A stretch of 64,000 bases of DNA from contig OZ024743.1 of NCBI GenBank assembly GCA_964016885.1, forward strand, positions 274,226,001 to 274,290,000. The letters are read 5' to 3'. The DNA is from Eledone cirrhosa. Its lineage: Eukaryota. Below the pieces are notes generated by a model. It saw only the letters and a program-made list of their open reading frames with translations. It did no database searches and had not been told where the DNA came from. Every line of letters begins with the position of its first letter. Position 1 is the first letter of the stretch. This document shows positions 2,002 through 63,929 of the stretch, one piece after another. A program made the translations under genes and the position numbers.

Positions 2002-2040
2002 GTATATAAATATATATATATATATTTATATATATATAAG
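1682..2040. repeat. (TA)n / (TATG)n compound microsatellite
   Basis: Direct inspection. Confidence 0.98.
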
Positions 2041-2700
2041 TATGTACACATACATACATATATGTATACAGACGTACAGTAGTATGTATATATATATACA
2101 TACACGCACACATATATATATGTACGTATGGATTCACCGAACATTTATTATAATGCTCAGTGTGTTTGTAAACAAACACCCCGTATTAAGCCGCAGTGTC
2201 CAGCAACCACCGTTGCTCGTTTGTTCAACACTGACAAGGGAACGCTGTACTAGTTTCAAGCTTATTAGCTATCGTCAGCAACGTATACCTTCCTGCCAGA
2301 ATGTTGAACGTATATACTTACCTCATGCATATTAACGGCTGAGTAGCCCAATTTGCATATCGAGTGGGTTAATCGGCCGGGTGCACCGAAAACGATAAAC
2401 GGAAAAAATGAAACGAAATTTCATTTCCCACTCTTAGTACGGCTGTTACTTAAATATAACTATGTACACGTACATACATATATGTATACAGACGTACAGT
2501 AGTATGTATATATATATACATACACGCACACATATATATATGTACGTATGGATTCACCTAACATTTATTATAATGCTCGGTGTGTTTGTAAACAAACATC
2601 CCGTATTAAGCCATAGTGTCGAGCAACCATCGTTGCTCGTTTGTTCAACACTGACAAAGGAACGCTGTACTAGTTTAAAGTTTATTAGCTATCGTTGCTG
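2041..2700 (-). mobile_element. Family A HHR-bearing repeat, about 1.6 head-to-tail units, 420-nt period (retrozyme or PLE pseudo-LTR-like)
   Basis: 2041 tatgtacacatacatacatatatgtatacagacgtacag recurs at 2461. Homologous to 15355-15772, 48657-49897 and 62808-63425. Confidence 0.85.
2243..2283 (-). ncRNA. Minimal type I hammerhead ribozyme (family A)
   Basis: Minus strand: CGTTG-CTGACGA-tAGCT aata AGCTt-GAAA-CTAG-TA-CAGCG. Canonical core, palindromic stem III ACTAGT, GUA cleavage triplet. Confidence 0.85.
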
Positions 2701-15319: not shown

Positions 15320-15354
<35 letters not shown>

Positions 15355-15355
<1 letters not shown>

Positions 15356-15772
15356 AGTATGTATATGTACATACATATATGTATACAGACGTACAGTAGT
15401 ATGTATATATATATATACATACATGTACGTATGTGTTTACCGAACATTTATTATAATGTTCGGTTTGTTTGTAAACAAACAGCCCGAATTAAGCCGTACA
15501 GTGTTCGGCAACCATTGTCGCCCTTTTGTTCAACACTGACAAAGGAACGATGAACTAGTTTCAAGCTTATTAGCTATCGTCAACATCGTATACCTTCCTG
15601 TCAGATTATTGAACGTTTGAAAGTATATACTTTCCTTATGCATATTAACGGCTGGGCAACCTAATTTGAATATCGAGTACGTTAGTCGGCCGGGCGTACC
15701 GAGAACGATAAATGAAATAGAATGAAATGAAATTTCATTTCTCACTTTTAGTACGGCTGATACTTAAATATA
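15355..15772 (-). mobile_element. Family A single unit; HHR at 15548-15588 with a C3U lesion
   Basis: Homologous to 2041-2460. HHR reads CGATG-TTGACGA-...-GAAA-CTAG-TT-CATCG. Confidence 0.85.
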
Positions 15773-16095
15773 TAGTATTTTACATTAGAGCAAAACTAGT
15801 TTAGTTTATTTTATTAAAAGTTGTAAGTCTAAATTTAAACCTCCAAATAATTCTAAATTTATGAAAATTTCACGAGAGTTTACAAAAGAATAACCACTTA
15901 GTTATATTATAAAAACAGTAAGGAGGTGTAAAGGAAGTTAGAAGTGATATATGTTATAAAGTTAAAAAGTTTTAAAAAAAATTATTTTAAGAATATAATT
16001 AAAACATGATCCATATGCTATTTTATACGAAGTCATAAATTTACTTGCTATAAAGTTAAAACATTAACATTGAAATTAAAACATTAAAGGATACA

Positions 16096-17748: not shown

Positions 17749-17999
17749 AATATGGTTTTATAAATATAGTTTCCATTTATTAATATATTGTATATTTACT
17801 CCACTAAACTGTTGAGTGCTTTATATAAGTTATAAACATTTTAAAATTAAATATAACCTCTGCATATCTATATATATATATATATATATACATACATAAA
17901 CAGAATATACACACAAAGTCATATAAAGATACACAATGGGTCGTACATGAAAGGATGCATCTTGTTATAAACATGTACACATATAAAAAATACATACAT

Positions 18000-18082
<83 letters not shown>

Positions 18083-18146
18083 CATATACGTATATACATA
18101 TATATATAAAAATATATAAATATGATATATATTAAAACTATACATA

Positions 18147-18335
18147 TAACTGTTTCTACTTTAGGCACAAGGCCAGCAAATACCCAGTGCATTACTGGTA
18201 CTTTATTTTATCGACCCCGTAAGGATGAAAGGCAAAGTCAACCTCGGCGGGATTTGAACTCAGACCGTAAAGGGACGTAACTATGCTGGCAAGCATGGTG
18301 TCTGACCCTCTACCGATACTGCCAATCCACCGCAA
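18147..18335 (-). mobile_element. Meta-domain SINE, near full length
   Basis: Reverse complement of ...ctgagttcaaatcccgccgaggttgactttgcctttcatccttacggggtcgataaaataaagtaccagt.... Confidence 0.85.
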
Positions 18336-19009: not shown

Positions 19010-19322
19010 AATTCATTGAAGTGTAGCAGACATGAGACAACGGACTGGTACCTGTGGTCAGAAGTATGATGACGTAGACAACCAGCGGCCAATCACTTGA
19101 CGCGCGAAGGGATGAAGTTTTTGACGGTACTGGCCCAGAGGGTCAGATACCCCAATGACAGAATATGCTCCGAAATCATTAGACGTGTCCGTCGAACCTG
19201 CAGATCCAGAATCAGATAGATCCACACAATGATCGTGTCTCGAGCTGTCCGTCGGCGAAACAATCGTAACACACAATAAATTGAGTTCAGATGCATCACT
19301 GATTTTTCTTTTTATATTATAT
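19010..19322 (+). mobile_element. Family E repeat copy
   Basis: Near-identical to the reverse complement of 14650-14797. Confidence 0.8.
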
Positions 19323-19383
19323 ATAAGATCCCGTTAAGGGTGAAAGCGGCGATTCTTTGTTTAAACTTTAATATGTTATTTTA

Positions 19384-19420
<37 letters not shown>

Positions 19421-19596: not shown

Positions 19597-19975
19597 ACTT
19601 GGGGAGGGTCATATTTTTGTAATATTGCCAGAAATAATAACAGAACACACTCACTGTTTAGTTGGTTTTCGCTTCTGTATCTTTTATATCTCCATAGTTA
19701 ATTTATTTGGCGTAGACATACAATACAGTACAATACAACAAGAGAGAACTTAATAGTACCACTGATGATGTTACAGATGTGCAACGAAAGAACTTTGATA
19801 GACTATATATATAAATTTTTAACCGCTGGTCATTCAATGATAAATATTGATTGCCAAATAAATTAACTATGGAGATATAAAAGATACAGAAGCGAAAACC
19901 AACCAAACTGTGAGTGTGTTCTGTTATTATTTCTGGCAATATTACCACAATATGACCCTCCCCAAATCTAACAAT
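19597..19975. mobile_element. Family I foldback with internal degenerate HHR (19757-19800, plus strand)
   Basis: Arms about 19598-19711 and about 19852-19966 are inverted. The spacer contains TACCA-CTGATGA-tGTTaca gatg tgcAAC-GAAA-GAAC-TT-TGATA. Confidence 0.7.
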
Positions 19976-21789
19976 GTATATATATATAAAGATAGAGCGG
20001 GGGGATAGAGACATACATCCCTCTATATACTATATATATATAATTTTTGTCGATATATATCTATGTTTATTTTTATAACCACATAGAATGTATTCATTCA
20101 TTAGGATGTTTACAGACGTAGAGTTGTTTTTGAAATTTTATATTTTTTAGCAATGAAATTTGATTAAACAGATTTGAAGTCGTCTCTGTTTTGGCCTGAA
20201 GTGTTTATTATATCATTTAATTTTGATAGCAGCTGCCTCCACTGGAATATAACCGAATCACTATAGCGCAATTACGTAATTGACAATAACATTTCTTTCT
20301 ACATTCACTTATCTATTGGTAATGTTCTATTTTTAATTATAATTCTGCCATTAAATATTCATACCTGTATACTCATTCGATAATCTTAATATTAATGGAC
20401 CATTCTGTCGCCTTCTGTTCTTTTATTTATCATTCAGAAATACCTAATTAACCACCCCCTATGCTTATTGAAGGAAGATATTATTGTAAGCATTAGAATA
20501 TGCTAATATATTCGTTTCTTTCACAAAGCAAGTGAGAAAAAAATCCTCTATTGATTGAATAAGAAAGCACTGTGAGACGTTCCTACATCTTTCCGCAAGG
20601 CAGTAGTTGTATAAGTAAGCAGATCTGGTTTCAACTCACAATCTAAACTGATTAGAAGCCTCGTCTTATATGAATTTATCCCTGTCCTTAGGCATCTGAT
20701 ATTGGAATGTACTTAAACGAATGTACTAACAGCCTTTCTTTTTTTTTTTGGTTTCGTTCGTTTGTTTGTTTGTTTTTTTCTCTGGTGGAAAACTCACACT
20801 TCGAAAAACAGGGTTTATCAAATTAATCGCTTTCAATATATTGCTACAATTAAATCTGTTTCTTGATAGGAATAAAAGGTAAAATCGGTCACTGTTCGGT
20901 ATCAGTATATTCCACGGGGCATTTAATCGGATGATTTCTCTTTTCCTACAAATTCAAATCACTTGATTGCATTATTCTATTATTACTAGGTTAGGTGATT
21001 GCATTAGAAAAAATCCTCTAAACGAAAGTCTTGATTCGTTTACAGCGACACGCAGTTTGCAAATGTTATCTTCTTTAACTTATATGGATATCGAAAGAGA
21101 GGCAGTAATACACAAAGTATCTAACGTCTATAAACAACAGAATTAAATGAAAATTAAACTAACTGATCTCATAGCTGGATTTGTAGATGATGATCTTTTA
21201 TTTCTTATCTTTAAAATCTCAATTCAAAGTCGGTATTTTCTTTACCTTATGAGTTGTCCATATTTATGCTACTGGTGAGAAATATACATTTCTATTTGTT
21301 TAATCCGTGTGGGTGTCAGTCGTGGTGTCACTTTTTTTTTAGTTTTTGTTGTTGTTGTTGTCATTGTTGTTTTTATTGCCGTTGTAACTTAACATTTCAC
21401 TAAGTATCAACAGCACTATTTATCTTTCATATGTTGCCGACAAAGCTATACCTCAAACTCTGTTCTAATTTAACGTTAACACGTATATTGCACCTCCCAC
21501 TCTAAACTAATTAGTCCTCACGCGAACATTATTGGTTTTGAACTGCTGCCATGCTTTTCTTTTATATAAAATTCGGGTAATTATTTTGATTGAAAACTTA
21601 GAACACTTAGTAAATTTCTTTACATTTGTGTTGTTTAAATACTAGGACAGGGAAAAGTGCACATGAACTGAAAAAAAATTAAAACGTCTCAAATCGCTGG
21701 GGCTTCCCCTCTGGAAGTCAATAATATCGGTTTCTGATTTAGGCATAAGGTTCACAATATTCGGGGTGGCGTATGTCATCCTTTGCGAT

Positions 21790-22430
21790 ATGATTTCAGA
21801 CGTGTTGATGCTCTGGCTCGGCTGGCACCGTTTGGCATGTCTCCGCTCGGCCTCGCAGCCCCGCAATGGTGCCTGCGTCGACGCAGTTCCATCACTTGCA
21901 TCTGGGACTCAGCTGGACAATTAACGCTTGCATATCAGAGTTTTCCCGAGGTTTGGCCACAGCGTCTGCGTCTTACAAATGCCGCTGCAGTACCATTGTG
22001 GGTCGTTTAGAATTCTCCGCACTGTCATACCGTTACAGTGTTAGCCACCTCCCACGCCATACTACTCTCAACGAGATCATAAAGCATGGCCTGGATGGTG
22101 CAGACTTCTCTTTTCAGCTCGAGCCAGTGGGGCTGGACCGAATGGACAGCAAAAGGCCAGACGGCATCATAATCTTCCCATCCTGTGGCTGTAGGCCCCT
22201 CACCTGTGATGACACCTATTCTAGTGGCAACCTGCTGCATTCGGCAGCCAGCCCAATCTCTGCTGCCGGCGAAGTGGAGAATTCCGTCGTACATGGCACA
22301 CAAACCATATCTCTACTCATTGCTATCGGAGCGGAGTTGGCCGCGCACAAGTGCAAGCCACGTGAGGTGGAGTAACTCTTCCAGCGCGGCTCCCTCGAAA
22401 TCCTCCGGAACAATGTATTCTCCATCCTGT
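21790..22430 (+). pseudogene. CRE-like (restriction-like endonuclease) non-LTR retrotransposon 3' relic
   Basis: RHTTLNEIIKHGL...LEPVGLDRMDSKRPDGIIIFP, the RH..LN / EP / KRPDG motifs of the RLE domain. Frameshifted. Confidence 0.8.
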
Positions 22431-23029: not shown

Positions 23030-23220
23030 TTATAGGATTGGCAGTATCGGTAGAGGGTTGGACGCCATGCTTTGACTCATTGAGTTACGGCCCTTGCCAT
23101 TCTGAGTTCAAATCCCGCCGAGGTTAACTTTGCCTTTCATCCTTACGGAGGCGATAAAATAAAGTACCAGTAATGCACTGGGATAATTGCTGACCTTATG
23201 CCAAAAGTAGAAACAATTAT
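23030..23220 (+). mobile_element. Meta-domain SINE, near full length
   Basis: A-box-like ttggcagtatcggtagag, B-box gagttcaaatcc, central gcctttcatcctt...gataaaataaagtaccag. Confidence 0.85.
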
Positions 23221-24306
23221 TTATAGAAATTAGCTCCATTTACAATTATATTCTGCGTTTGGTTTACTACATTTTCAATGCTTATACATATATTCAAATC
23301 TATCTATCTAATATATATGTGTATTTGTGTGTGTATGTGTGTCGAATATGGTAATTTATGTCGTGGGACATCTTGATTTTTCAGTGATTATTCACCTCGT
23401 CCAGTTTATTCTTTACCTGATTTTTTTCGGTCTGGTGATTTCGTCAAAAAGAAACCAAAATTTGACATGACGTCATTCTTTTTTTTTTTTTTCTCTCTTT
23501 CCTTTCCGTTATATGTATTTCATTTCTAAAAATACAATAATCTTCATTAGAAAAAGATATAAAAATATCGATAGTTATCTTTTTTTTAAACAAATCATTT
23601 TAGTTAAATGCAGAGACCTAGCCAATAATTCAGCAAGAATAGAAAGAAAAAGTATACTTTTTTATGCTTTTATAAAAATATTTTACCGGTTCATTACGTT
23701 GTGAATTCTTGTTTTAAATTTAGACAGTTTGCACAGCATTTCCAAAACCGAAGCAAGGAATATACAGATATAGAAATATGTGAACATTGCTAGAGAACGG
23801 TCGATACATAAATTTTCTGAGAATGCTTCGTGTTTGATTTACTGGTGTCTGACATTTTGTGCATATATTACATAAATATGTTGAAAAAGCAAACAGATAG
23901 AGGAGATTATTATAGGAAAGAATGAATGAATTTAGATAAAAAAAGAGGGTAAGAGATATGTCTTGAGAAAGGTAAACGGTCGGGTGGGTGGGTAAGTATT
24001 GTAGGCTGGAAGTAGTTAAGTAAAATAGATAGGCACGTAGATCGGACAGGAATTTAAATTGAAACTCAAAGATAATAGATATTATAGAGAGGATATCTAT
24101 GGTGGCAGGAAAATAGAAATATGCTAAGTCATTGAGAGTACAGAGCTTTAGTGAGGGTGGGGGTTGAGTGAAGTGTAACAACAGAAGGTTGCATTCATTT
24201 ACAGAACGAATTGGTTTCCTGGGACATTAATTTCTCGCAATAAATTCAGATTGATTAAACTGACTGTAATTCTGAAGTACAAGTTTAGTATTTTATCTCA
24301 TCAAAA

Positions 24307-25607: not shown

Positions 25608-25614
25608 GATAAGG

Positions 25615-25773
25615 ATCGGACGCCATGCTTTGACATATAGAGTTACGGCCCTTGCCATTCTGAGTTCAAATCCCGCCGAGGTTAACTTTGCCTTTCATCC
25701 TTATGGGGTTGATAAAATAAAGTACCAGTAATACACTGGTTATTTGCTGGCCTTGTGCTAAAACTAGAAACAG

Positions 25774-25775
<2 letters not shown>
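25615..25775 (+). mobile_element. Meta-domain SINE, 5'-truncated
   Basis: Same consensus as 23030-23220. Confidence 0.85.
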
Positions 25776-25818
<43 letters not shown>

Positions 25819-25823
<5 letters not shown>

Positions 25824-26194
25824 TAAAATAACAGATTAAAGTTTAAGCAAAGAATCGCTGCTTTCACCCTTAACGGGATCTTCTGAAACTAACAAAGTCA
25901 ATCTGTAAACGCAGAACTGGATATTTCAAAAAACGTTGCAATCGGAGGAAGACAGGAAGACGATACTTTGGTTCGTGGTAACGTTCGCTGGCAAAGAACG
26001 GGAAAAAACGAATAATACGTCATTAATAGGAGCGGTGAAAAACAATTACGCGCAATTACAAAACCACGTTTATGGTATAAAAGAGGTCGTAGACTAATGT
26101 TCTCTTAGGTGGTGCATAGAGACGTTCTCTGGCAATGAACGAAAAAACGAAGATAATAAGTCATATGTGGAACGTGGAGAACAATAGCACGCAA
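25819..26194 (-). mobile_element. Family D repeat with U4A-variant HHR fold (25841-25889)
   Basis: Inverted near-copy of 27392-27770. Confidence 0.8.
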
Positions 26195-26505: not shown

Positions 26506-26582
26506 AATATATATATATATATATATGGGTTGAAATAAAATGAAAACTAAATTTCATTTCTCACTCTTAGTATGGCACTTAC

Positions 26583-28261
<1,679 letters not shown>

Positions 28262-28751: not shown

Positions 28752-28916
<165 letters not shown>

Positions 28917-28919
28917 ATT

Positions 28920-29018
<99 letters not shown>

Positions 29019-29021
29019 ATT

Positions 29022-29098
<77 letters not shown>

Positions 29099-29319
29099 AA
29101 TTAAGTTAAAAGTGTACATCCACATATGTATACTGAAATACTAGTATGCATATAAATACACACACGTATACATATGTACATGTACCGAGTTTTTCACTGG
29201 ACACTTTACTGTGAGTGTCCAGCTAGTCTGTATGTAACCAAACAGACAAACCGGTTTTTAGTGTCATACGGGTTTTCAAGGAAACACCTTTCCTCTATTC
29301 TCCAGAGAGCCAGACAGGA

Positions 29320-29362
29320 ATATTGGACTAGTTTCGATGTTATTACATCTCATCAGCAATAT
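29320..29362 (-). ncRNA. Minimal type I hammerhead ribozyme (family B)
   Basis: ATATTG-CTGATGA-GATGT aata ACATC-GAAA-CTAG-TC-CAATAT. All stems perfect, GUC triplet. Confidence 0.92.
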
Positions 29363-29699
29363 ATACCCATCTTCCGGCTTCTCTAGAGAATCGTAAAAGC
29401 ATATATCGTTATATGCTTTTTCTATGAAAATTAGTAGTGGGCAGACTAATTTGCATAGAACGTGAGTACGCACCGGTTCAGCGGAAACGATAAAAACAAA
29501 TAACGAAACGAAATTAAATTTCGTTTCGTTTGTAACTCACTTTTGTATGACTGACGCTTAAACAATTAAGTTAAAAGTGTACATCCACATATGTATCACG
29601 TTCTATGCAAATTAGTCTGCCCACTACTAATTTTCATAGAAAAAAGCATATAACGATATATGCTTTTACGATTCTCTAGAGAAGCCGGAAGATGGGTGT

Positions 29700-29742
29700 A
29701 TATTGCTGATGAGATGTAATAACATCGAAACTAGTCCAATAT
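29700..29742 (+). ncRNA. Minimal type I hammerhead ribozyme (family B, inverted copy)
   Basis: atattgctgatgagatgtaataacatcgaaactagtccaatat, read directly on the plus strand. Confidence 0.92.
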
Positions 29743-30030
29743 TCCTGTCTGGCTCTCTGGAGAATAGAGGAAAGGTGTTTCCTTGAAAACCCGTATGACT
29801 CTAAAAACCGGTTTGTCTGTTTGGTTACATACAGACTAGCTGGACACTCACAGTAAAGTGTCCAGTGAAAAACTCGGTACATGTACATATGTATACGTGT
29901 GTGTATTTATATGCATACTAGTATTTCAGTATACATATGTGGATGTACACTTTTAACTTAATTGTTTCAGCGTCAGTCATACAAAAGTGAGTTACAAACG
30001 AAACGAAATTTAATTTCGTTTCGTTATTTG

Positions 30031-30118
<88 letters not shown>

Positions 30119-30169
30119 ATATTTATTTATATATATATATATTTATATATATTTATATATATATATATT

Positions 30170-30200
<31 letters not shown>

Positions 30201-30233
30201 ATATATTTATATATATTTATATATATATATATT

Positions 30234-30287
<54 letters not shown>

Positions 30288-30301
30288 TATATATATATAT
30301 T

Positions 30302-30341
<40 letters not shown>

Positions 30342-30381
30342 TATATATATATATATTTATATGTTAATATATATATATATT

Positions 30382-30448
<67 letters not shown>

Positions 30449-30451
<3 letters not shown>

Positions 30452-31169
30452 AGAGTATTGAAGTTTGCTTGAACCATTGTGGAACAATAAGTAAATATTT
30501 ATAAGTCGTTTGGAAGCCTCGACAATGCAAATGGGTAAATCTCCGGGTAACAAGGTCCGGTGGTGGAGAGAGAGATATGTAAGTGGGTGTACGTTGAGAT
30601 GCGTGGTGTGTATAAGATGTGTGAGATGTGTAGAATGAAGGGAAGAGTAAAAGAGTAAAAATAATAATAACAACACAAGAGAGAGAGTTACCTTGGGAGA
30701 GATTTAATAGTCCCTATATATTTCGGATTCACATCCATCAACTGGGGGTTTTTTCCGGGGTGGGGGAAAAGTTTGTCTGTCGGACAACTCGGAACGCGTC
30801 TTTCGCTGTTTGTTGATTTGAATATCAGATATTCAATATCAGATATTCAAATCAACAAACAGCGAAAGACGCGTTCCGAGCTGTCCGACAGACAACCTTT
30901 TCCCCCACCCCGGAAAAAAACCCCAGTCGATGGATGTGAATCCGAAATATATAGGGACTATTAAATCTCTCCCAAGGTAACTCTCTTTCTTGTGTTGTTA
31001 TTATTATTTTTACCCTTTTACTCTTCCCTTCATTCTACACATCTCACACATCTTATACACACCACGCATCTCAACGTACACCCACTTACATATCTCTCTC
31101 TCCACCACCGGACCGTGTTACCCGGAGATTTACCCATTTGCATTGTCGAGGCTTCCAAACGACTTATAA

Positions 31170-31172
<3 letters not shown>
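30449..31172. mobile_element. Family C near-perfect palindromic element, about 700 bp
   Basis: Arms about 30494-30826 and about 30842-31172 are inverted around the centre aatatcagatattc. Homologous to 46708-47382. Confidence 0.9.
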
Positions 31173-31254
<82 letters not shown>

Positions 31255-31544: not shown

Positions 31545-31550
<6 letters not shown>

Positions 31551-31780
31551 TCTTCTAAATGTTTTAAATTAAACATACAGTATATTGCTAAATATACTAT
31601 ACATACATTCATGTATACATCGCTATTTCAGAGCACTAATCCTAATACCTAATTTTTGCTGGACCGGCAATCGCTATGTGTAATCAGCTCCTGATTATTA
31701 CTGGAATTCTATAAGAATCCAGCTTCTATGATTTTCGGTGAAAGCAGGGGAGTACGTGGCTCTGATGAACGCCAACCATG
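31545..31780 (+). mobile_element. Family F diverged fragment, truncated inside an HHR with canonical CTGATGA (31762-31768)
   Basis: catcgctatttcagagcac...ctgattattactggaattctataagaat...atgattttc...ggagta aligns with 62450-62600 and 62690-62790. Confidence 0.7.
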
Positions 31781-32104: not shown

Positions 32105-32744
32105 TATATATATATATATATATACAGTATATATATATATAGTTGTATGGTTGCATGGAAAATGCGTCCCTGGGTGGTATGCCGGTTGAGCACTCGAGAA
32201 GCATATCTGACGACCTTTCGATTACAGAGTCAGGTTCGATCTATAATAGATCTTGCCTCGAGCTGATCGATAGAGAAACATATGCAATGTGTTATTAATG
32301 CATCACTGTTATGATGCAACACTGGATCCTTGTTCCTTATCTAAACTATAATAATGTAAGGAGTGCTGGAGTGTATCCAGAATAATTTTTTTTATTCCGT
32401 TTGTAAAATAAGTTCGATTACTTTAAATAAATAATGAATGAATATTACATAATTCATGTACTAAATTTCGTAACTAAATTTGGTAGTTATAAATAATTTA
32501 AAATTGACTTCTTTTCAAAGTTTCAAATTTCTACGCTTCCGCTATATCGTCGCCACCACCACCACTTCAATTACCATATATATAGAAAGAGAGAGTTTGT
32601 GATGAGAGAGATAGAGAGAGATAAAGTGATTATGACTCTCTACTCGCTGTCGCGTATGATTGTGCACATACATATCTCTCTATGTGTGAGTATATAACTA
32701 TTATGAGTATATAACTATAATCGCGCAAACAAAGTTATAAAAAT

Positions 32745-33460: not shown

Positions 33461-33489
33461 ACAATATGCAGGCGAAAGAATGGGAAAAC

Positions 33490-33990
33490 GAGACGCTACC
33501 AGAACAAAAGATAGCAATATAGCGAGGAGCACTGGGAAACCTCTCTAATAATTTTTGAGGCAAGTCAGCACGCTCGCAGCGTTACCTGGAGGAATGGCAA
33601 GGCTGAGGTGCTGGAACAACCAAGTGTCCTTACGAGCATCACCAGTTACCTGTGTTTGGCGAGCCGCCAGTGAAGGCGCTGTCAGTATCCCGACTCCCCC
33701 AAACGTTTCCAACGCCACAGGCTGGATAATGTAGTTAGCTGACCGAACACGGTATTTTAGGATTTTGTTCCGTTCAGCTGCGGATGCTGTCGCTCTCGCC
33801 CTTGCCGCTGCATCCAGGATGTGGGAAGAAGCAAAAGTGTCACTAAGTGTGACGTCCCAGTTAAGGCACCTGCCTCTTGACCAGGAGCCCAGAGTAAGAC
33901 TGTCAAGTCTTTTCCCATCAATTCTGGACAACCCAGACTTCCAAAATTGAGGGGATGTTTGCCCGGGCCAAAGTTCTTGAGTTGCAATAG
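33490..33990 (-). pseudogene. CRE-like RLE retrotransposon 3' relic
   Basis: RIDGKRLDSLTLGSWSRGRCLNWDVTLSDTFASSH...KILKY...IIQPVALETFGGVG...[17 protein letters not shown], an RLE C-terminus. Confidence 0.88.
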
Positions 33991-34041
33991 GACAGTTTGT
34001 GTATGTGCAGGCACGAGTTTGTCGGTGTTATTAAATTAGAG

Positions 34042-34816: not shown

Positions 34817-34863
34817 TAGCTGTACCTGTTGAGGTATCCCTCCACTTATATATATATAATATA

Positions 34864-35006
34864 GGACACTTGGTTGTTCCAGCACCTCAGCCTTGCCATT
34901 CCTCCAGGTAACGCTGTGAGCGTGCTGACTTGCCTCAAAATTTATTTGAGAGGTTTCCCAGTGCTCCTCGCTATATTGCTATCTTTTGTTCTGGTAGCGT
35001 CTCGTT
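34864..35006 (+). repeat. Inverted copy of the CRE-like 3' end (33488-33629)
   Basis: ggacacttggttgttccagcacctcagccttgccattcctccaggtaacgc...ctggtagcgtctcgtt is the reverse complement of 33488-33629. Confidence 0.9.
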
Positions 35007-35335: not shown

Positions 35336-35999
35336 TCTAAATTATATTCAAACCAATCTTGTTTACTGAAATGTAAAATATATTACTGGGAAATTTGTAT
35401 GTGTATGATATATATATATAGATATATCGTTTCTGAATTTGTTTAGCAAGATTCTTTATCTGAAAACGTGTGTTGAAATATACTTTTGGTGTGTCATGTT
35501 GTCAATAAGAAACACACGTACTACTTGCTTTCACTTCAATTTATTATAAATTTTATGAATTTTATAAATATAAATTTCATAAATTTTATAAATTTCCGAT
35601 TGGTTGGTTGGTTCCACAACCGGACGGTTGTTCATATATTGTCAAAGTTCTTTCGTCACACATTCTCTTCAGTGACTGCGGATTCTTTTCTTTATTTTGT
35701 GCCTCTCGTTTGTTCTGTCCTACGCCATCTTGCTTTTCGAAAGACAAGAAAAACAAGATGGCGTAGGACAGAACAAAGGAGATGTATTCGGCGCCGTGAA
35801 ATACTGTAATTTACTGAAGTCGTATAATTGTAAATTCCTTCCTTGAACTGTTTCTTGAACTCCCCTTTGGATATGCTAATATAGCATTTTTGAGTCGTAT
35901 TAAGGTTTAGATTTATTGAGCTACGTTCTGATTCTTATATGGTAGCTTCTTCATTATAGAAGCTTTTTAGCAGCTTCGTATTTATCTGTTAGTCTTTGA

Positions 36000-36560
36000 A
36001 ACGCTATTATTATCCCAAGTGCCAGATCACCTCAACATTTATATCACAATGATAAGAAGATTCTGTTTTCTCTAAATGACTCCGCCTGTATTTAGATATT
36101 TGACCTCAAAGGTTTCTTTAATATAAGGGCAATGTCATTTGATAGCGTTGGTATATGTGACTTTAGGGGATTATTCATCTTTGAATATTAAAGAGATGAC
36201 AGACAAGCTGTCTCTAAATTGTTCATGGAGACATATTTGCTATATTAAGTAAAGTCCTCATACAAACCTTCAGTACATTTTCAGGCCTGAAAAACATCTG
36301 CAGTGATAAACTTAAACGTAATTAATTTCCTGGATGTGATCCTAAATTTTAATACTAACTCATATAAAACATTTAGAAAACCAAATGAAAAGCTCACTTA
36401 TTTTAACACAATTTTATGCCACCCACGTAATGTCTCTGAACATCGCGCTGACAAAGTAATTAGAAAGATTTTGAAATTGTACTAAAATAAAGAAAGTCTT
36501 TATAGTGCAATTCCTTTGTATAATGGTGCTTTAAGAGAGAATGGTCTTAAAAATAAGATC
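36000..36560 (+). pseudogene. Penelope-like reverse transcriptase relic (RT C-terminal/thumb region)
   Basis: INFLDVILNFNTNSYKTFRKPNEKLTYFNTILCHPRNV, the FLD...(Y/F)RKP...HP PLE motif. Confidence 0.75.
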
Positions 36561-36986
36561 TAGAGTATTGATACTGATCACACTTGTTGCCAATTTGGCG
36601 TCAGGGATCCCTATCGCTAAACATTGATACACGCTGAATAATAAAGTATTATATCAATAAAATCAAGATCTTATATTGTGAATACTGTAAAACCGCAGAA
36701 TGTAATGGATATGAAGTGACGATGGTTGTAGGTGTGTGCTTGTTTTATTAGAAACAGTTGCTCAACCCCACCCTCAAATCGTACCATCCGACTTACATAT
36801 ATATGAATATATTAAATATAATGTTGTAGTTCCCGATATAATGAACACGATGGTAACGAAAAGAAGGCTCATAGATCTTTTTGATGAGAGTTGACCAAGA
36901 ACCAAATGAGACCTACATCAATAATAATTACACGTATTATGTTATTTCCTATATGTGTATGGACAAATACACTCATATATAGATCA

Positions 36987-38451: not shown

Positions 38452-38714
38452 GACATTAAAAAGCTGAATGCAATATCTACATTTTCCTCCATCTAGATGT
38501 AATAACATGAGAAAGTATCTACCTCTAGACATATAAAAATATATTGGCATGACTCCAAATACATACTTATATTTAAATCAAAGTCTTTTTGAATGGATTT
38601 CTTATAATTCAACTTATACTACAAATAATATGCACATCTAAGACCAATGTTTTACGAATTACAGTCTAAAGACCTTGTTTATCTATTTGAGTATGGTTCG
38701 ATGATATTGATAAT

Positions 38715-38812
38715 AATTGTTTCTACTTTTTGGCACAAGGCCAGCAATTATCCAATATATTACTGGTACTTTATTTTATCGACCCCGTAAGGATGAAAGG
38801 CAAAGTTAACCT
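38715..38812 (-). mobile_element. Meta-domain SINE 3' fragment
   Basis: actggtactttattttatcgaccccgtaaggatgaaaggcaaagttaacctc. Confidence 0.8.
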
Positions 38813-39199
38813 CATTGATAATAATATAGAAACATCTATCCTGATGTTCCGACATGACCACATTTGTATGATATAAACCAGTAAAATAATTTAGAATCTC
38901 TGAATTCTGTTATTTCTATAATGTCTCTTTTATTAGATAATCTAATACACGCAGTATTACACTATCATACAGTTTATATACAACTTTACCAAACTAGACA
39001 AACTACAGCACGTTACATTACCTCACTGACTACACTGGCTTTTCTACTATCCCAAGTTCACATATTCTATTAAACTACTACATAATTCACATTTTGCTGT
39101 TAAGTTTCATACAGAAAACACACTATCCCCCGCAAATATATATTCTATATCCTAACATCTTATTTTATTCTCAAATCCTTACCACAGAGACAGATATGG

Positions 39200-40266: not shown

Positions 40267-40860
40267 GTATGAACAAATATGTATATTCACTTACGGACGC
40301 AAAGAAAATCATGCAATTATACATACACACATATACATATTGATATATACCGACATAGACACACATGCCAAATTATACAGGCTGGTTCATGTCCGCACGG
40401 TTACGAAAGTGTGTCTGTGAGAACATTACGAAGTATATGCTCAAGCACACATTCCAACTACACACATACATACATACATACATACATACACACATACATA
40501 CATACATACATACACCTCAACATGATTATTTGTACACATGAATATTTAGAACGATTCGCACGCAGCCACTCACAGTCATCTACATACACATACGAGCACT
40601 ATCCCTTGCACATATTAGTCTTCATCTGTCTCTTTTATTTTATCTGTCCTACTCTCTAATGCAATTATTTACGATTCTAGGAAATGTTTCTATTCTATAT
40701 ATTCTAGCAACTACTTTCGCATCATCCGTCTTTCCATATACACTTTTATATATATATATATATATATAACGAAGGAAATGTGGTAAGGAACCAGGTGGAC
40801 CATAACGCACCAAAGTACTCAATACTTGAGGTAGTAGAGTGGGTAATAGGAACCAGTAAG

Positions 40861-40953
40861 ACCCGACAGCTGAGCTCAAGCCGTTTCGACGGCTAATTCT
40901 GGACTAAATGAAAATTTATCCTGGTATTTAAATAGCCGATCTTCTCAAGGGGT
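40861..40953 (-). ncRNA. Type I hammerhead ribozyme, U3-A8 core variant
   Basis: aCCCC-TTGAGAA-GAtCGGCTA...TAGCCGTC-GAAA-CGGCT tgagctc AGCTG-TC-GGGT. Extended stems II and III, GUC triplet. Confidence 0.75.
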
Positions 40954-42071
40954 AATTCCATATATGGTCAAAGTGATTGTCAAAAATCAGTAGTAATTCT
41001 GTGGTTGCAAATTAGTAGGGGAGATGGTGGCTAAACCTGCCAGTAGGAGAAGGAGGGGAGGGGTGGAGTAGACCCAATCAAGCGTTGGTAGTGCCAGCTA
41101 CAGCTGGGCATGAGGTCAAAGAAGATACAGGGGAGGGGGAGGGGGAGGAAGTCGGAACGCTAGGTAGAACAATGGGGGGTAGAAATATATAGGAAAGAAA
41201 AAATACTGAGAGTGAAGAAAAGCAAATAAGTGTAAAGAAAAAAGTAAAGTAAATTAAATTCTACGACCTAAGTCTCTAGCTATTGTTAGGCTAGAATGAA
41301 TAAATAAAGAAAGAAAGAAAGAAAGAAGTAAAGAAAGAAATAAAGAAATAACGAAATAAGTAAAAGAACTAGGTGGGACGGATTAGGCAAGGACCCTTTT
41401 AAGAGGTATAAGTACGTAAATGATACGGTGACGGGTCAACAAAAGGGGCCAAAATACTAAAGAGACTACCACAAAATAAACAATAAAGGTTTCCATCCCG
41501 GGCACAATGCCAGCAACCACCCAGTGCAGCAAAGTGAACTTGTACGAGATAATAATTCTGAGTCCCGAGAAAAATATATACTAATGCTAACTCTAAAAGA
41601 TCTAAAACAAGCTACATGAAAGTTCGTACGAAGTAAAGGTAGAATACGGAAAAATAAATTCAGAATCCACCCCGCCCAAAAGAAAAGCGAAGAAAGAAAT
41701 ACTGAAACGAAAAAATAAGGCATAAGTGCCACTAAGAAATATAGAGGGCACAGAGAATAGTGGGAGCGGTCGGAAAAAGGGGACAAGTATCCGGGGTCTA
41801 AACCAACTGCTATAAAGGGTGGAGTCCGCCAAATCTATCATAGACTAGGGGAGGGGGTGGGGGTACTAAGGCTACAAGGGGCCAAAGGGCAGCCTCGGGT
41901 GGGCGAGAAAAGACGCCGACAAAGGAGAAGAGCTGGGGTAGAAGGACTAAGGAGAGAGGGGGGAAGGAAATAAAGGAATCGATAAAAGAATACAAAGAAG
42001 ATCTTACGTCTCCCTTGGCAAGCAGGGGTTACCCATTGCAAAATCGGCAAGTGGGGTGTTATAGCCCTAGT

Positions 42072-42690
42072 CTACCCCCCCCCCCCCGGGTCATTATGGG
42101 GTTTGAGGGCGAGGTAAGTCCTACGCAATCTATGTTTACATGCAGTAACCAGTTCATCTTTCTTGTTTAGGAGTTGGTCCGTCGAAAACAGCATTTGTAA
42201 AGTTTCCTCCGAGCATAAATTGCACGGACGGCGTCCTCCCGTGTAAGAATTGGCTCTGGACAGTAATCTCCAAGTGAGATCATAGGTGATGTTGTTGTCC
42301 TTGAGGTCCCATATGTGGCCCGAAAGTGTAGTGGCGTGACGCCGGGCCGGGTTTCGGAAGGTATGTCTATGTTGGTATAGCCGGGTCTTGAAGTCACATG
42401 CGGTAAGTCCTATATAGGCTTTGTTGGAGGTATCCGTCCTCACGTTGCACTGGTAGATCACATTACGGTCTCTGCATCTATTGTCTAGTGGGCAAATAGA
42501 TCTATCCGGGCAGTTACACCTCCTGGTCGGTTCTCCACTGCTATTTAGGTTATTTCTGCCATCGGGGTTGAGTTTTTTGTTGTTAGAGGAGACGATGTTT
42601 TGTGCGAAGTTTGGTGTAGTGCTGTAAGAGAGTTTGATGGTATTTTTGTTAATTATGTTGTGGTAGCGGTGTTGTAATGGGAAGTGAAAA
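42072..42690 (-). CDS. PLE C-terminal Cys-rich linker plus GIY-YIG endonuclease (5'-truncated, frame intact)
   Basis: TIKLSYSTTPN...CNCPDRSICPLDNRC...VIYQCNV...YIGLTACDFKTRLYQHRHTF...TTLSGHIWDLK...CNLCSEE...LLNKKDELVTACKH. Confidence 0.9.
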
Positions 42691-42860
42691 ACACTTCCCA
42701 TTACAACACCGCTACCACAACATAATTAACAAAAATACCATCAATTATATTGCGTTTATTAGTTGGTGATGCGCGTTTTGCTATTAATAGGCTCATGGTT
42801 CGATCTGTATCGATCTGGCCCAACTCAGCTTGTCGGACCTCGGTTGTAGCAATGACAGAA

Positions 42861-48117: not shown

Positions 48118-48772
48118 AGGTACGTGTGTAGGCAATGTTTATGTACGTATGTGTTCGTATGTGTGTGTGGACATGAGTGAGTTTACGTTTGTGTATATAT
48201 GTGCGTGTATGGATGTATGTGTGTGTGTATATATATGTATATATATACATATAGTTATGTAATGAACAACATAGGATAATTATTTCATTCACCAGTGGTT
48301 TCTTGAAAGCAAACGATATTTACTTTTATTCATGAGAATGAAAAAATCCTAGGTGTGTATATGTATGTGTGTATGTACATGTGCGTATATATGTATGTAT
48401 CTGAATGTATGTGTGTATGTATATATGCGTGTGTATGATCGTGTGTATGAGCGTGTGTATATATATATATTTAAATGTATAGAAGGTTGGCCGTATATGT
48501 GTGTGCGCGCATGTGTATGTATATATGTGTACGTTTGAATATGACATGCTTACCCAATTGATACAGAACAGCCAGAAGGCTCGTGGCGGCATGTATCAAC
48601 AAGTGTGTGTGACTGGGTCTATGGGAGAGGGGGGAGTGGGTGTGTGAGTATATATATAAGTTGAAATAAAATGAAAAGGAAATTTCATTTCACACACTTA
48701 GTACGGCACTTACTTAAATGTAAGTATGTGTGTATACGTACATACATATATGTATACAGACGTACAGTAGCA

Positions 48773-48898
<126 letters not shown>

Positions 48899-49051
48899 CA
48901 GGTACACATACATATATGCACGTATTAGTTTAGCGGACGCTTATTATAACTCCGCTTTGCTCGTTTGTAAACAAACTGAACAGCCTGAATTTTTATGCCG
49001 TATGGTGTTAAGGCAACCACGTCACCTTTTTGTTCAACACTGACACAGGAA

Positions 49052-49092
49052 CGATGTACTAGTTTCAAGCTTGTTAGCTATCATCAGCACCG
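49052..49092 (-). ncRNA. Minimal type I hammerhead ribozyme (family A')
   Basis: CGGTG-CTGATGA-tAGCT aaca AGCTt-GAAA-CTAG-TA-CATCG. Confidence 0.87.
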
Positions 49093-49329
49093 TATACCCA
49101 TCTGCCAGATAGTTGAACGTTCGAAAGTATATACTTTCCTTATGAAAATTAACGGCTGAGCAGCCTAATTTGCATATCGAGTGAGCTAAGTCGGTCAGAC
49201 ATACCGAAAATGATAAGTTGAAATAAAATGAAAACGAAATTTCATTTCTCACTCTTAGTACGGCACTTACTTAAATGTAAGTATGTGTGTATACGTACAT
49301 ACATATATGTATACAGACGTACAGTAGCA

Positions 49330-49391
<62 letters not shown>

Positions 49392-49392
49392 C

Positions 49393-49475
<83 letters not shown>

Positions 49476-49628
49476 CAGGTACACATACATATATGTACCT
49501 ATCAGTTTAGCGGACGCTTATTATAACGCCGCTTTGTTCGTTTGTAAACAAACTGAACAGCCTGAATTTTTATGCCGTACGGTGTTAAGGCAACCACGTC
49601 ACCTTTTTGTTCAACTCTCACACAGGAA

Positions 49629-49669
49629 CGATGTACTAGTTTCAAGCTTGTTAGCTATCATCAGCACCG
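49629..49669 (-). ncRNA. Minimal type I hammerhead ribozyme (family A', second unit)
   Basis: Identical to 49052-49092, 577 nt away. Confidence 0.87.
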
Positions 49670-50334
49670 TATACCCATCTGCCAGATAGTTGAACGTTCG
49701 AAAGTATATACTTTCCTTATGAAAATTAACGGCTGAGCAGCCTAATTTGCATATCGAGTGAGCTAAGTCGGTCAGGCATACCGAAAACGATAAGTTGAAA
49801 TAAAATGAAAACGAAATTTCATTTCTCACTCTTAGTACGGCACTTACTTAAATGTAAGTATGTGTGTATACGTACATACATATATGTATACAGACGTATA
49901 TATATATATAGACGTATATATATATATATAAGGAAACACGGAAGACACAAAGACAATGTCGTTTCCCGCTCAACGGCTATCTTCTGTGGATCATTATAGT
50001 TTCAAATATATAATGGCTGATTAAAAACCCACGAGCTTTTCTCTTGAAAATTGTATTCCGTTGTTTACTTTTCTTGTCCTCTTCTATCCTGTTTCTTTTA
50101 TTTCCCTATTTGTCATTCAATGAAAGACAAACGTCCGAAACTTTGAGACATTTTTCCTAATATATCAAGCATTAAACTTATACATATCATTATTGCATTG
50201 AATCGATCTCCTCTGTTGTTTTTCCTTGTTGAGTTTTCGCATATATATTTTTTTCCTGTGTGTTTACAGGGTCATACAGCAGAAACTCAACTCCAGAGTA
50301 ACAGGTTTCTGACTCAATTTTAATTAAACCTATA

Positions 50335-53881: not shown

Positions 53882-56886
<3,005 letters not shown>

Positions 56887-56952
56887 ATTAAGCTCTGTTG
56901 CTTACATAGAGCACTCTTTTTTCCTGGACTTTTCCGACGGAATTACTTCATT

Positions 56953-57000
<48 letters not shown>

Positions 57001-62022: not shown

Positions 62023-62204
62023 GAAATAAACACAGTAAATTCTGTCTCTAAAATTACGGGGTAGAAATACCACATTTGTGTTATATATTTAACCTGAAAC
62101 ATACGTAAGATATAAAATGTTTATATACAGACCGTATCAATAACTATTTCATCTCTCGGACAGATTAGAGATTTGAAAATTGTGTTTGTAACAGATAATC
62201 CGTC

Positions 62205-62795
62205 AATATACTGTGTGCTTAATCAAAAGCATTTCGAAGACCTTACGCTATTGTTTTAGAGTAGTGACAGTCTCACTTACTTTAATTTTCAAGAAACAGG
62301 GGAGATAAAGCTGACAGAGCTCTGTTTCGCACTTGTTGGTGCTTATCAAAGCTAACTACTCCACCTGTTTGCTGAAAATCATGAATGTTTGATTCTTATA
62401 GAATTCTACTAATAATCAGAGCACCAATTCTTATAGAATTCTAGTAATAATCAGAGCACCAATTCTAATTTTCAATTTCTGCTTGACCGGCAAACGTTCT
62501 GTATAATCAGTTCCTGATTATTACTAGAATTCAATAAGAATCAAACGTTCATGATTTTCAGCAAACAGCTGGAGTAGTTAGCTTTGATAAGCACCAACAA
62601 GTGCAAAACAGAGCTCTGTCAGCTTTATCTCCCCTGTTTGCTGAAAATTAAAGTAAGTGAGACTGTCACCACTCTAAAAGAATAGTGTAACGTCTTCGAA
62701 ATGCTTTTGATTAAGCATACAGTGTATTGCAAAATACACTATATATACATTCATATATATATCGCTATTTCAGAGGACCAATTCTAATTTTCAAT
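62205..62795. mobile_element. Family F foldback; 319-nt terminally redundant unit
   Basis: Arms about 62205-62419 and about 62515-62728 are inverted. cagag(c/g)accaattctaattttcaa occurs at 62452 and 62771. Confidence 0.88.
62309..62353 (-). ncRNA. Type I hammerhead ribozyme, U3-A8 core variant (family F)
   Basis: AGCT-TTGATAA-GCAC caacaa GTGC-GAAA-CAGAGCTCTG-TC-AGCT, with a 12-nt palindromic stem III. The inverted copy at 62580-62624 has GAAA changed to AAAA. Confidence 0.8.
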
Positions 62796-62807: not shown

Positions 62808-63425
62808 GAGCAACGATGGTTACTAGACACTGTACGGCTTAATTCGGGATGTTTGTTTACAAACACACCGAGCATTATAATAAATGTTCGCTGAATCGAT
62901 ATGTACATGTATATATGTGTGCATGTATGTATATATTATATATACATACTACTGTACGTCTGTATACATATATGTATGTACGTATACATACTTATATTTA
63001 AGTAACAGCCGTACTAAGAGTGAGAAAGGAAATTTCGTTTCATTTTTTCCGTTTATCGTTTTCGATACCCCGGCCGATTAACTCACTCGATATGCAAATT
63101 GGGCTGCTCAGCCGTTAATATGCATAAGGAAAGTACATACTTTCAGACGTTCAATCATCTGACAGGAAGGTATACGTTGCTGACGATAGCTAATAAGCCT
63201 GAAATTAGTACAGCGTTCCTTTGTCAGTGTTGAACAAACGAGCAACGATGGTTGCTAGACACTGTACGGTTTAATTCGGGTTGTTTGTTTACAAACACAC
63301 CGAGCATTATATTAAATGTTCGGTAAATCCATACGTACATGTATATATGTGTGCATGTATGTATATATATATATACATACTACTGTACGTCTGTATACAT
63401 ATATGTATGTACGTATACATACTTA
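62808..63425 (+). mobile_element. Family A repeat, about 1.4 units, 432-nt period
   Basis: gagcaacgatggtt.ctagacactgtacgg at 62808 and 63240. Reverse complement of 2041-2460. Confidence 0.88.
63175..63215 (+). ncRNA. Minimal type I hammerhead ribozyme (family A, slightly decayed)
   Basis: CGTTG-CTGACGA-tagct aata agcct-GAAA-TTAG-TA-CAGCG. Confidence 0.75.
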
Positions 63426-63929
63426 TATATATATATATATATACATACATATAAAGAGTGAGAGCGAGCGAGATGAAAAATGTTTAGAAACGGCAGTGTT
63501 CATCACGCATGTTGATTTATACATGCCTATGAACATAATTACGTGTGTGTGTATGTGAGTTTGTATGTTTCTATGCGATCGCATTAACATGGCCATCAAT
63601 ATGGTATTTAACTATGAAACCGGCAGAGCTGTTTCAACGAATATTATCTAAAAGGCAAATTGAAAGGATGTTGGATAAGTTTGTGTAGGACAGAGAAGGA
63701 GGAAATAATTGACTGTAAATGTATATCTCCTTTAGTTCTCACATCAGTAGTAATTAATTTAACTAACGGCAATTAGATTAATTTGCTCTAAACAGCTGTT
63801 CCAAGCTCACATTCACAACACGCTTCAACTTAAATGTTGATGAGAAAAGGATAAATCAGAGAAACCCTATGTCCGCCATTTATACTGATACGTTGTAAAC
63901 GAGGATTCAATTTTCAATAATGATAATAA

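What the first reader, a model, noticed from the sequence alone, without database searches (positions are those of the whole stretch)
29095..30037. Circularly permuted units imply a circular or concatemeric RNA template
Seen: the 465-nt family B unit reads through its own junction (gacgct(t/g)/aaacaattaag) in both the direct copy (29560) and the inverted copy (about 29960-29975). Family A copies begin and end at different phases of the unit (2041, 48657, 62808). Family F is terminally redundant (62452 and 62771), and its 31545 relative spans that junction. Established: non-LTR retrozymes form circRNAs after HHR cleavage and integrate as permuted tandems. Inference: predicted circRNAs of about 420-432 nt (A), 577 nt (A'), 465 nt (B) and 319 nt (F).
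Basis: partly seen in the sequence, partly recalled or inferred. Interest (0 to 1): 0.75.

Follow-up and report, generated by a model that had tools for sequence, protein, structure and literature searches.

The report
Ribozyme repeat with Penelope insertion footprint
This is a short non-coding jumping element with a self-cutting RNA motif whose copies were pasted into TA repeats in the way Penelope-type retrotransposons paste themselves; the DNA shows that the RNA template was longer than one unit or circular, but cannot tell which.

Summary
The permutation is real. 29095-30036 holds two head-to-head arms of a 465-nt unit inside a (TA)n array. Each arm carries a type I hammerhead ribozyme and reads across the unit junction. 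But the copies are not randomly phased. Read on the ribozyme strand, all 7 3' ends of the related families A, A' and B fall on two sites (4 at +222, 3 at +274-278 from the cut). Only the 5' ends scatter. Two fixed 3' ends, a 'tail' on one arm only, head-to-head inversion, a partial tandem and (TA)n targets are the published footprint of Penelope-like elements (PLEs). Coding Hydra-type PLE fragments in the window share it. Best reading: a non-autonomous, retrozyme-like PLE passenger copied from two internal start sites. A more-than-unit or circular template is required, but a circle is not implied: uncut tandem RNA suffices in vitro for a PLE. Only A' has two intact same-strand ribozymes here. 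Weak hint for a circle: 4 of 8 long arms stop about one turn from their own start (p about 0.06). Known kind, well-preserved example.

The parts
29095..29559 (-). Family B arm 1, one full 465-nt unit (ribozyme sense on minus); 3' end at 29095 = start site 1 (+232 from the cut)
29560..29596 (-). 37-nt partial second unit at the 5' end of arm 1 (mini pseudo-LTR); identical to 29095-29131
   Evidence: 0 differences of 37
29597..30036 (+). Family B arm 2, inverted (head-to-head) copy, about 440 nt; lacks 24 nt of the unit (29466-29489); joined to arm 1 with 1-nt microhomology
29968..30036 (+). One-sided 'tail' of 67-70 nt between start site 1 and start site 2 (+301 from the cut); contains a hairpin
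   Evidence: fold
29303..29375 (-). Type I hammerhead ribozyme, core at 29356, predicted cut after 29326; stem I 6 bp, stem II 5 bp, short palindromic stem III
   Evidence: Rfam HH9 32.9 bits, E 3e-6, below gathering score 52; compensatory changes
29687..29759 (+). Second hammerhead (arm 2), core at 29706, predicted cut after 29736
   Evidence: Rfam HH9 30.3 bits, E 2e-5
28756..29094 (.). (TA)n target array, left
30037..30449 (.). (TA)n target array, right
2036..2695 (-). Family A copy, about 1.6 units of 420 nt; 3' end at site 1; intact ribozyme (cut after 2248); 5' end inside the upstream ribozyme core
15350..15775 (-). Family A copy, about 1.0 unit; 3' end at site 1; ribozyme core altered; 5' end abuts a coding PLE insertion
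62808..63431 (+). Family A copy, 1.44 units of 432 nt; 5' end 62808, 3' end at site 1
48655..49897 (-). Family A' tandem, 2.2 units, two intact same-strand ribozymes (cuts after 49634 and 49057, 577 nt apart); 3' end at site 2
26528..26590 (-). Family A' tail-only fragment (site 2 to about site 1)
62204..62795 (.). Family F two-armed insertion, 319-nt unit; left arm (minus) has an intact U3-A8 variant ribozyme (cut after 62313); right arm has a 66-nt tail, 26-nt terminal redundancy and a G12 change
31549..31780 (+). F relative (77-86% identical) spanning the unit junction; C3-G8 core where F has U3-A8; ends inside the ribozyme (exception to the two-site rule)
42072..42744 (-). 3' part of a coding Hydra-type PLE (linker CxCx5C plus GIY-YIG-type endonuclease) with a short 5' inversion; candidate class of helper
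53924..56957 (.). Two-armed element with a PLE endonuclease C-terminal remnant (54297-54440), ribozyme at 56801 (+) and a 71-nt one-sided tail

Best explanation
Family B, and its relatives A and A' (65% and 82% identical to A), is a non-coding, hammerhead-bearing passenger of a Penelope-like retrotransposon. It works like a non-LTR retrozyme and is inserted by PLE machinery. Shown from sequence: unit structure, ribozyme motif with compensatory changes, two fixed 3' ends, scattered 5' ends, head-to-head arms, (TA)n flanks, and the same architecture around coding PLE remnants. Inferred: a PLE RT-endonuclease (probably Hydra clade, which targets (TA)n) binds the RNA near the tail hairpin and nicks both strands of a (TA)n array. 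Each nick primes reverse transcription at one of two internal start sites 56-70 nt apart, about 220-300 nt downstream of the ribozyme cut. Each cDNA runs 5'-ward across the uncut (or religated) ribozyme and into the preceding unit. The two truncated cDNAs are joined 5'-to-5' by microhomology. Because priming is internal, any copy longer than about 230-300 nt needs a template that is an uncut head-to-tail multimer or a ligated circle. My split, inference only: uncut tandem transcript about 0.5, circle about 0.35, jumping between cleaved monomers about 0.15.
For: 7 of 7 A/A'/B 3' ends at two sites; random draws matched this in 0 of 200,000 (uniform), 0 of 200,000 (positions with >=2 nt TA microhomology) and 39 of 200,000 (>=3 nt); the 5' ends needed 142-nt windows. 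One-sided tails of about 40-75 nt in 8 of 10 two-armed elements (B, C1, C2, D14k, D61k, F, E26k, J), the same two ends recurring in independent copies of C and D. Ribozyme scan: 8 hits vs a null mean of 0.3 in 60 shuffles, 7 with palindromic stem III vs 0. 93.6% of 78 cells paired, 5 of 13 pairs with double changes, against 23-46% paired when slid. Coding PLE remnants at four places; homologs carry RWR and DKT motifs and the window protein has CxCx5C, the Hydra marks. One coding remnant has the same two-armed, one-tail form. Literature: partial tandem, inverted 5'-truncated copy and one-sided tail (PMC8557442; PMC3846280); two internal RT starts, both strands extended, uncut RNA used (PMC11167929). 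In B neither arm can be copied from the other without a template switch: arm 1 has 24 nt that arm 2 lacks, and arm 2 runs 67-70 nt past arm 1's end. This favours two primings on RNA.
Against: No sequence similarity between A/B and any coding PLE in the window, so the helper is not identified. Tails are 40-75 nt, longer than the 30-40 nt reported. 2 of 10 two-armed elements (G19k, H) show no clear tail, and 3 further inverted elements examined were undecidable and left out. The F relative at 31550 ends at neither site. End positions are uncertain by a few nt because of TA microhomology. Rfam matches are below the gathering score. Pfam gave no match for the window's endonuclease fragment or its homologs, so PLE identity rests on motifs read by eye and on precomputed PF26215 labels. 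No RNA data, and only one 64-kb window.
Confidence: 0.8

Rival explanations
1. The template is the ligated circular monomer (rolling-circle reverse transcription), primed at the same two fixed sites. It is a sub-case of the best explanation.
For: Units fold as highly self-paired circles (B -157.7 kcal/mol, 70% paired, z -11.5; A -5.5 and -6.7; F -5.5; 30 shuffles each). 4 of 8 arms of at least half a unit end within 0.1 turn of their own start (1.08, 0.95, 1.00, 1.08; binomial p 0.056). Repeated stretches group by locus (4 informative columns) and not by position (0), as expected from a homogeneous template. Related animal retrozymes do accumulate as circles (PMC7229834).
Against: The turn test is post hoc, n=8, ignores the bias towards short copies, and one of the four (A15k) ends at another insertion. 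A homogenised tandem also groups by locus. The fold z-scores are inflated by local hairpins and, in A', a microsatellite. Palindromic stem III needs a dimer to cut well, and 8 of 9 Xenopus dimers tested did not cleave in vitro (bioRxiv 10.64898/2026.07.22.740005). Uncut RNA was the dominant PLE template in vitro (PMC11167929).
Confidence: 0.3
2. The inverted arm arises by self-priming (fold-back), possibly on an antisense template, rather than by two primings on sense RNA.
For: Proposed for head-to-head PLE inversions with palindromes at the junction (PMC3846280). In F, D14k and J the short arm is contained in the long arm, and C1 and F have small duplications at the centre.
Against: In B neither arm contains the other and there is only 1 nt of microhomology at the junction. 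It does not by itself explain why the short arm stops at a fixed site.
Confidence: 0.12
3. Plain DNA events (tandem duplication, slippage, inversion at TA arrays) rearranged a fixed-end element after insertion.
For: The locus sits in unstable (TA)n; microsatellite growth inside A' shows that post-insertion change occurs.
Against: It cannot give the same two 3' ends in families only 65% identical, on both strands, at unlinked loci, nor the same one-sided tail in independent C and D copies. Arm 2 of B is not a single inversion of arm 1.
Confidence: 0.05
4. The inverted arms are assembly or library fold-back artefacts.
For: PLE tandem/inverted structures are known to trouble assemblies (PMC8557442); flanks are long microsatellites.
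Against: B arms differ at 3 substitutions and 1 indel, other pairs are 82-98% identical, and the asymmetry falls at family-specific fixed sites.
Confidence: 0.02

Closest known systems
Metazoan non-LTR retrozymes (PMC7229834; bioRxiv 10.64898/2026.07.22.740005)
   Same: Non-coding unit of a few hundred nt, GC 29-39%, type I hammerhead with short palindromic stem III, strongly self-paired predicted circle, co-occurrence with PLEs; A' is a tandem with two complete ribozymes.
   Different: B is not a head-to-tail array but a head-to-head pair with a 37-nt partial repeat; expression and circularity untested. The parts of these papers that I read do not describe fixed start sites or tails.
Endonuclease-positive Penelope-like elements: pseudo-LTR, inverted copy and tail (PMC8557442, PMC3846280, PMC11167929)
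   Same: 5' truncation, partial tandem, adjacent inverted 5'-truncated copy head-to-head, tail on one arm, two 3' ends downstream of the ribozyme, AT-rich target.
   Different: No RT-endonuclease ORF; tail 40-75 nt rather than 30-40; start sites 220-300 nt after the cut rather than about 85-90 nt as in the anole element.
Hydra-clade PLEs (PMC8557442 section 11)
   Same: (TA)n targeting, canonical ribozymes; a coding remnant with CxCx5C linker lies 12 kb away and its homologs have RWR and DKT motifs.
   Different: No DNA similarity between B/A and these remnants was found; helper status is inferred.
Paired opposite-strand minimal hammerheads in Schistosoma PLE remnants (PMC4209133)
   Same: Two ribozymes 100-700 bp apart on opposite strands (350 bp in B); the U3-A8 core variant (family F).
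   Different: B has a canonical-size stem I and II and a 2-bp stem III rather than the minimal form.

Membership tests
non-LTR retrozyme | Type I hammerhead in the unit | tested here: met
non-LTR retrozyme | Short non-coding unit, GC under 50% | tested here: met
   465 nt, GC 0.36; no frame of 120 aa or more inside the element apart from microsatellite frames at the edges
non-LTR retrozyme | At least two consecutive head-to-tail units with complete ribozymes (criterion for an active locus) | tested here: not met
   B locus has one ribozyme per strand; met only by relative A' at 48655-49897. B is therefore not filed as an active retrozyme locus, only as a dispersed copy of a family that works like one.
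non-LTR retrozyme | Highly self-paired predicted circular monomer | tested here: met
   (z -11.5 for B, 30 shuffles); prediction only
non-LTR retrozyme | Self-cleavage and accumulation as linear and circular monomer RNA | not testable with these tools
   no RNA data or bench assay
non-LTR retrozyme | Target-site duplication longer than 4 bp | tested here: inconclusive
   both flanks are (TA)n
non-LTR retrozyme | No LTR, primer-binding site or polypurine tract | not tested
   not searched for specifically
PLE-type insertion (non-autonomous) | Fixed 3' ends at two sites giving a one-sided tail | tested here: met
   tail 67-70 nt, longer than the published 30-40 nt
PLE-type insertion (non-autonomous) | Variable 5' truncation with partial tandem (pseudo-LTR) | tested here: met
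PLE-type insertion (non-autonomous) | Adjacent inverted 5'-truncated copy, head-to-head | tested here: met
PLE-type insertion (non-autonomous) | Sequence similarity to the pseudo-LTR of an autonomous PLE | tested here: inconclusive
   none within this window; no eukaryotic genome collection on hand
autonomous PLE | RT plus GIY-YIG ORF | tested here: not met
   no ORF or tblastn match in 29095-30036
Hydra-clade PLE (for the remnant at 42072-42744) | C-terminal endonuclease with CxCx5C linker; RWK and DKT motifs | tested here: inconclusive
   linker present in the window protein; RWR and DKT seen by eye only in full-length homologs at 44% identity; no tree built

The most novel reading that the evidence does not exclude
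Each two-armed insertion records a dimeric PLE enzyme priming both target strands at two different fixed sites of a circular ribozyme RNA, each cDNA tending to stall after about one turn. B would then be a genomic footprint showing both that PLE machinery mobilises retrozymes and that the circle is the true template, a point so far proposed but not shown in the papers I read.
Probability: 0.2. Interest if true: 0.65.

Novelty: new member of a known kind. Interest (0 to 1): 0.36.

Why it matters
That PLEs mobilise animal retrozymes is argued in print from shared ribozymes, co-occurrence and pseudo-LTR similarity, with the mechanism left open (PMC7229834; bioRxiv 10.64898/2026.07.22.740005). Here non-coding ribozyme units carry the PLE-specific insertion footprint itself: two start sites, a one-sided tail and head-to-head arms. 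Six answered literature searches showed no paper reporting that footprint for retrozymes, but supplements and subscription papers were not seen. The short unit and dense copies make the open question 'circle or uncut tandem' testable by counting 5' ends genome-wide. The finding as first stated (permutation implies circles) adds little: it is a published hypothesis and these data do not decide it.

Tried and rejected
Rfam at gathering thresholds: 0 matches in the whole window; in E-value mode 47 matches in the B locus, of which only the two HH9 matches are meaningful, the microRNA matches reflecting the inverted repeat. A strict ribozyme scan missed family A and F motifs; a relaxed scan found them but still missed the altered A63k, A15k and right-arm F copies. 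The first pair count used a mis-registered structure and was redone. The inverted-repeat finder was swamped by (TA)n. RNAalifold of the tail region gave weak support: 2 of 18 pairs with double changes, so a conserved tail structure is not established. Single-RNA L1-style twin priming, in which one arm's 5' end abuts the other's priming site, does not fit B (gaps of about 94 or 357 nt on a multimer). A pile-up of 5' ends at the cut site, expected from cleaved linear monomers, was not seen (0 of 7). No ribozyme core was found in the 3' region of the coding PLE at 40740-42120, nor in families C, D, E and H by the scans. Pfam: no match for 4 of 5 window frames and one insignificant match for the fifth, none for 3 of 3 homologs. 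I first took 15765-17120 for a mitochondrial insert; tblastn shows a PLE remnant inside it. In one search the A2k 5' end was entered as 2687 instead of about 2695 (1.55 vs 1.57 units; class unchanged).

Full report
What is there. The window is microsatellite-rich animal-type DNA, mostly 30-40% GC. Between two (TA)n arrays, 29095-30036 holds a 465-nt unit (29095-29559), the first 37 nt of a second unit (29560-29596, identical), and then an inverted copy (29597-30036). Read on the minus strand, the inverted copy covers the last 70 nt of the unit and then its first 371 nt. The arms differ at 3 substitutions and 1 indel.

Orientation. Each arm has a type I hammerhead: core at 29356 on minus and 29706 on plus, with predicted cuts after 29326 and 29736. 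Rfam gives HH9 matches at E 3e-6 and 2e-5, below the gathering score; the gathering scan of the whole window found nothing. A relaxed scan found 8 motifs in the window against a null mean of 0.3 in 60 shuffles; 7 have a palindromic stem III against none in the null. Across 6 distinct A/A'/B motifs 93.6% of 78 cells pair, with double changes at 5 of 13 pairs; slid controls pair 23-46% (relatedness inflates the shuffle control). Family F has the U3-A8 core and its 31550 relative the C3-G8 core. With the ribozyme strand as sense, B's arms point outwards: 5' ends joined in the middle, 3' ends in (TA)n.

Families A, A' and B are one group (A-B 65%, A-A' 82% identical). Mapped onto the A unit from the cut site, the seven 3' ends lie at 222, 222, 222, 222, 274, 278 and 278, and the seven 5' ends at 30, 158, 186, 210, 215, 299 and 405. 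Random sets of seven fitted two 5-nt windows in 0 of 200,000 draws (uniform, and restricted to positions with 2-nt TA microhomology) and 39 of 200,000 (3-nt). In B, arm 1 ends at site 1 and arm 2 at site 2, so one arm carries a 67-70-nt tail.

This is general in the window. Of 12 inverted elements examined, three were undecidable and dropped; with element J added, one search examined 10. Eight have a tail of about 40-75 nt on one arm only (B, two C copies, two D copies, F, E, J) and two do not (G19k, H). The two C copies use the same two ends with the tail on opposite sides. Eight D ends fall into five tailed and three tail-less (read by eye). The one clear exception among ribozyme families is the F relative at 31549-31780, which ends inside the ribozyme.

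Candidate helper. A frame at 42072-42725 (minus) is 44% identical to the C-terminal part of unnamed 700-aa proteins (9 hits of 274 candidates). These read as RT plus GIY-YIG proteins with RWR and DKT motifs (by eye), and the window protein has the CxCx5C linker. These are the marks of Hydra-clade PLEs, nearly all of which insert into (TA)n (PMC8557442 section 11). tblastn finds four such remnants in the window. The one at 54297-54440 lies in a two-armed element with a ribozyme and a 71-nt one-sided tail. No DNA similarity links A/B to these remnants, and Pfam named none of them.

What is known. PLE insertions are 5'-truncated partial tandems, often with an adjacent inverted copy and a 30-40-bp tail at one end (PMC8557442, passages; PMC3846280, passages; PMC8969392, passages). 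For the anole PLE, the protein nicks AT-rich DNA on both strands and starts reverse transcription at two internal sites downstream of the ribozyme; the tail is the stretch between them; ribozyme mutants insert normally and uncut RNA is the dominant template (PMC11167929, parts 1-2 of 4 read). Animal retrozymes are tandem type I hammerhead repeats expressed as linear and circular monomers, with rolling-circle insertion by PLEs proposed (PMC7229834, parts 2-4 of 6; PMC4209133, parts 1-2 of 4). A 2026 preprint ties them to PLE pseudo-LTRs by phylogeny, leaves the mechanism open and saw cleavage in 1 of 9 dimers (10.64898/2026.07.22.740005, parts 1-3 of 5). I saw no supplements; they may hold insertion-end data that bear on novelty.

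Mechanism. Shown: structure, ends, flanks. Inferred: two target-primed events on opposite strands of a (TA)n array, one from each start site, copying 5'-ward across the ribozyme and joined by microhomology. B argues for two primings rather than fold-back, because arm 1 holds 24 nt that arm 2 lacks while arm 2 extends past arm 1's 3' end. Six of seven copies cross an intact cut site and none starts at it, so a cleaved linear monomer is not the usual template.

Circle or tandem? Not decidable here. For a circle: strong predicted self-pairing; repeats group by locus, 4 columns to 0; 4 of 8 long arms stop within 0.1 turn of their own start, p 0.056, post hoc. Against needing one: the in vitro PLE result; the existence of a genomic 2.2-mer (A') that could supply multimers; a stem III that needs a partner. 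Only A' could release a monomer (577 nt) from loci in this window, and its second unit is about 20 nt shorter through microsatellite change. Read-through of B itself would give a roughly 440-bp hairpin rather than a circle (inference).

Verdict. Observation partly confirmed, interpretation partly supported. A new member of a known kind: a retrozyme-like non-autonomous PLE passenger. Its modest value is that it shows the PLE priming footprint on non-coding ribozyme units and makes the circle question countable. Interest 0.36.

Noticed in passing
window 29449-29456 (-), 29605 (+), 2351, 49168, 49745, 63092; also 30525, 31136, 46744, 47298: The octamer ATGCAAAT (label recalled) lies about 100 nt upstream of the ribozyme in B, A and A' and also occurs in family C. 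Newt satellite 2 is reported to use an snRNA-type promoter (passage in PMC2220036). Here the motif also sits in a predicted hairpin stem, so a promoter role is only a lead.
   Followed up: partly
window 30450-31176 and 46709-47382: Family C: near-perfect 670-730-bp palindromes in (TA)n with a ~41-nt one-sided tail; no canonical ribozyme core found, though a stem followed by GAAA and a palindromic stretch is present.
   Followed up: partly
window 3333-3560, 14571-14935, 19149-19326, 32142-32300, 47415-47673, 61635-61800: Family D: eight ends at two sites about 75 nt apart; no ribozyme detected in the truncated copies.
   Followed up: partly
window 19599-19976, 14986-15150, 35640-35680: Family G: ribozyme-like core at 19762 (+) and 35672 (-) with imperfect stems; two-armed at 19.6 kb with little or no tail.
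   Followed up: partly
window 25820-26194 and 27394-27771; 19325-19390: Family H: 378-nt inverted pair (96%) with identical outer ends in (TA)n, enclosing other elements; no tail and no ribozyme found.
   Followed up: no
window 15765-17120: AT-rich element with 348-nt inverted ends and a PLE linker/endonuclease remnant at 16099-16502 (-); its left end coincides with the 5' end of the A15k copy near site 1.
   Followed up: partly
window 36018-36611 (+): Decayed RT-like remnant matching the same PLE proteins.
   Followed up: no
window 53-1420 (-): 455-aa open frame with no Pfam match and three unnamed homologs at 48-60% identity over part of its length; possibly a retroelement ORF1.
   Followed up: partly
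window 11074-11217, 18146-18330, 23035-23225, 25612-25787, 38704-38813, 57889-58121: Six copies of a SINE-like repeat with tRNA-like A and B boxes by eye (ARAGORN found no tRNA). From recall only, it and the microsatellite pattern resemble octopus DNA; not tested.
   Followed up: no
window 17683-17750 (+): Isolated type I hammerhead-like motif (stem I 8 bp, palindromic stem III) with no repeat partner found in the window.
   Followed up: no
window 21809-22375 (+) and 33545-34027 (-): Two frames that look by eye like ends of another retroelement's endonuclease domain (label recalled; no Pfam match); the second is flanked by a 144-nt inverted repeat (33487-33630 / 34863-35006).
   Followed up: no
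window 51760-52245: GC-rich tandem of about 169-nt period, 2.6 copies.
   Followed up: no
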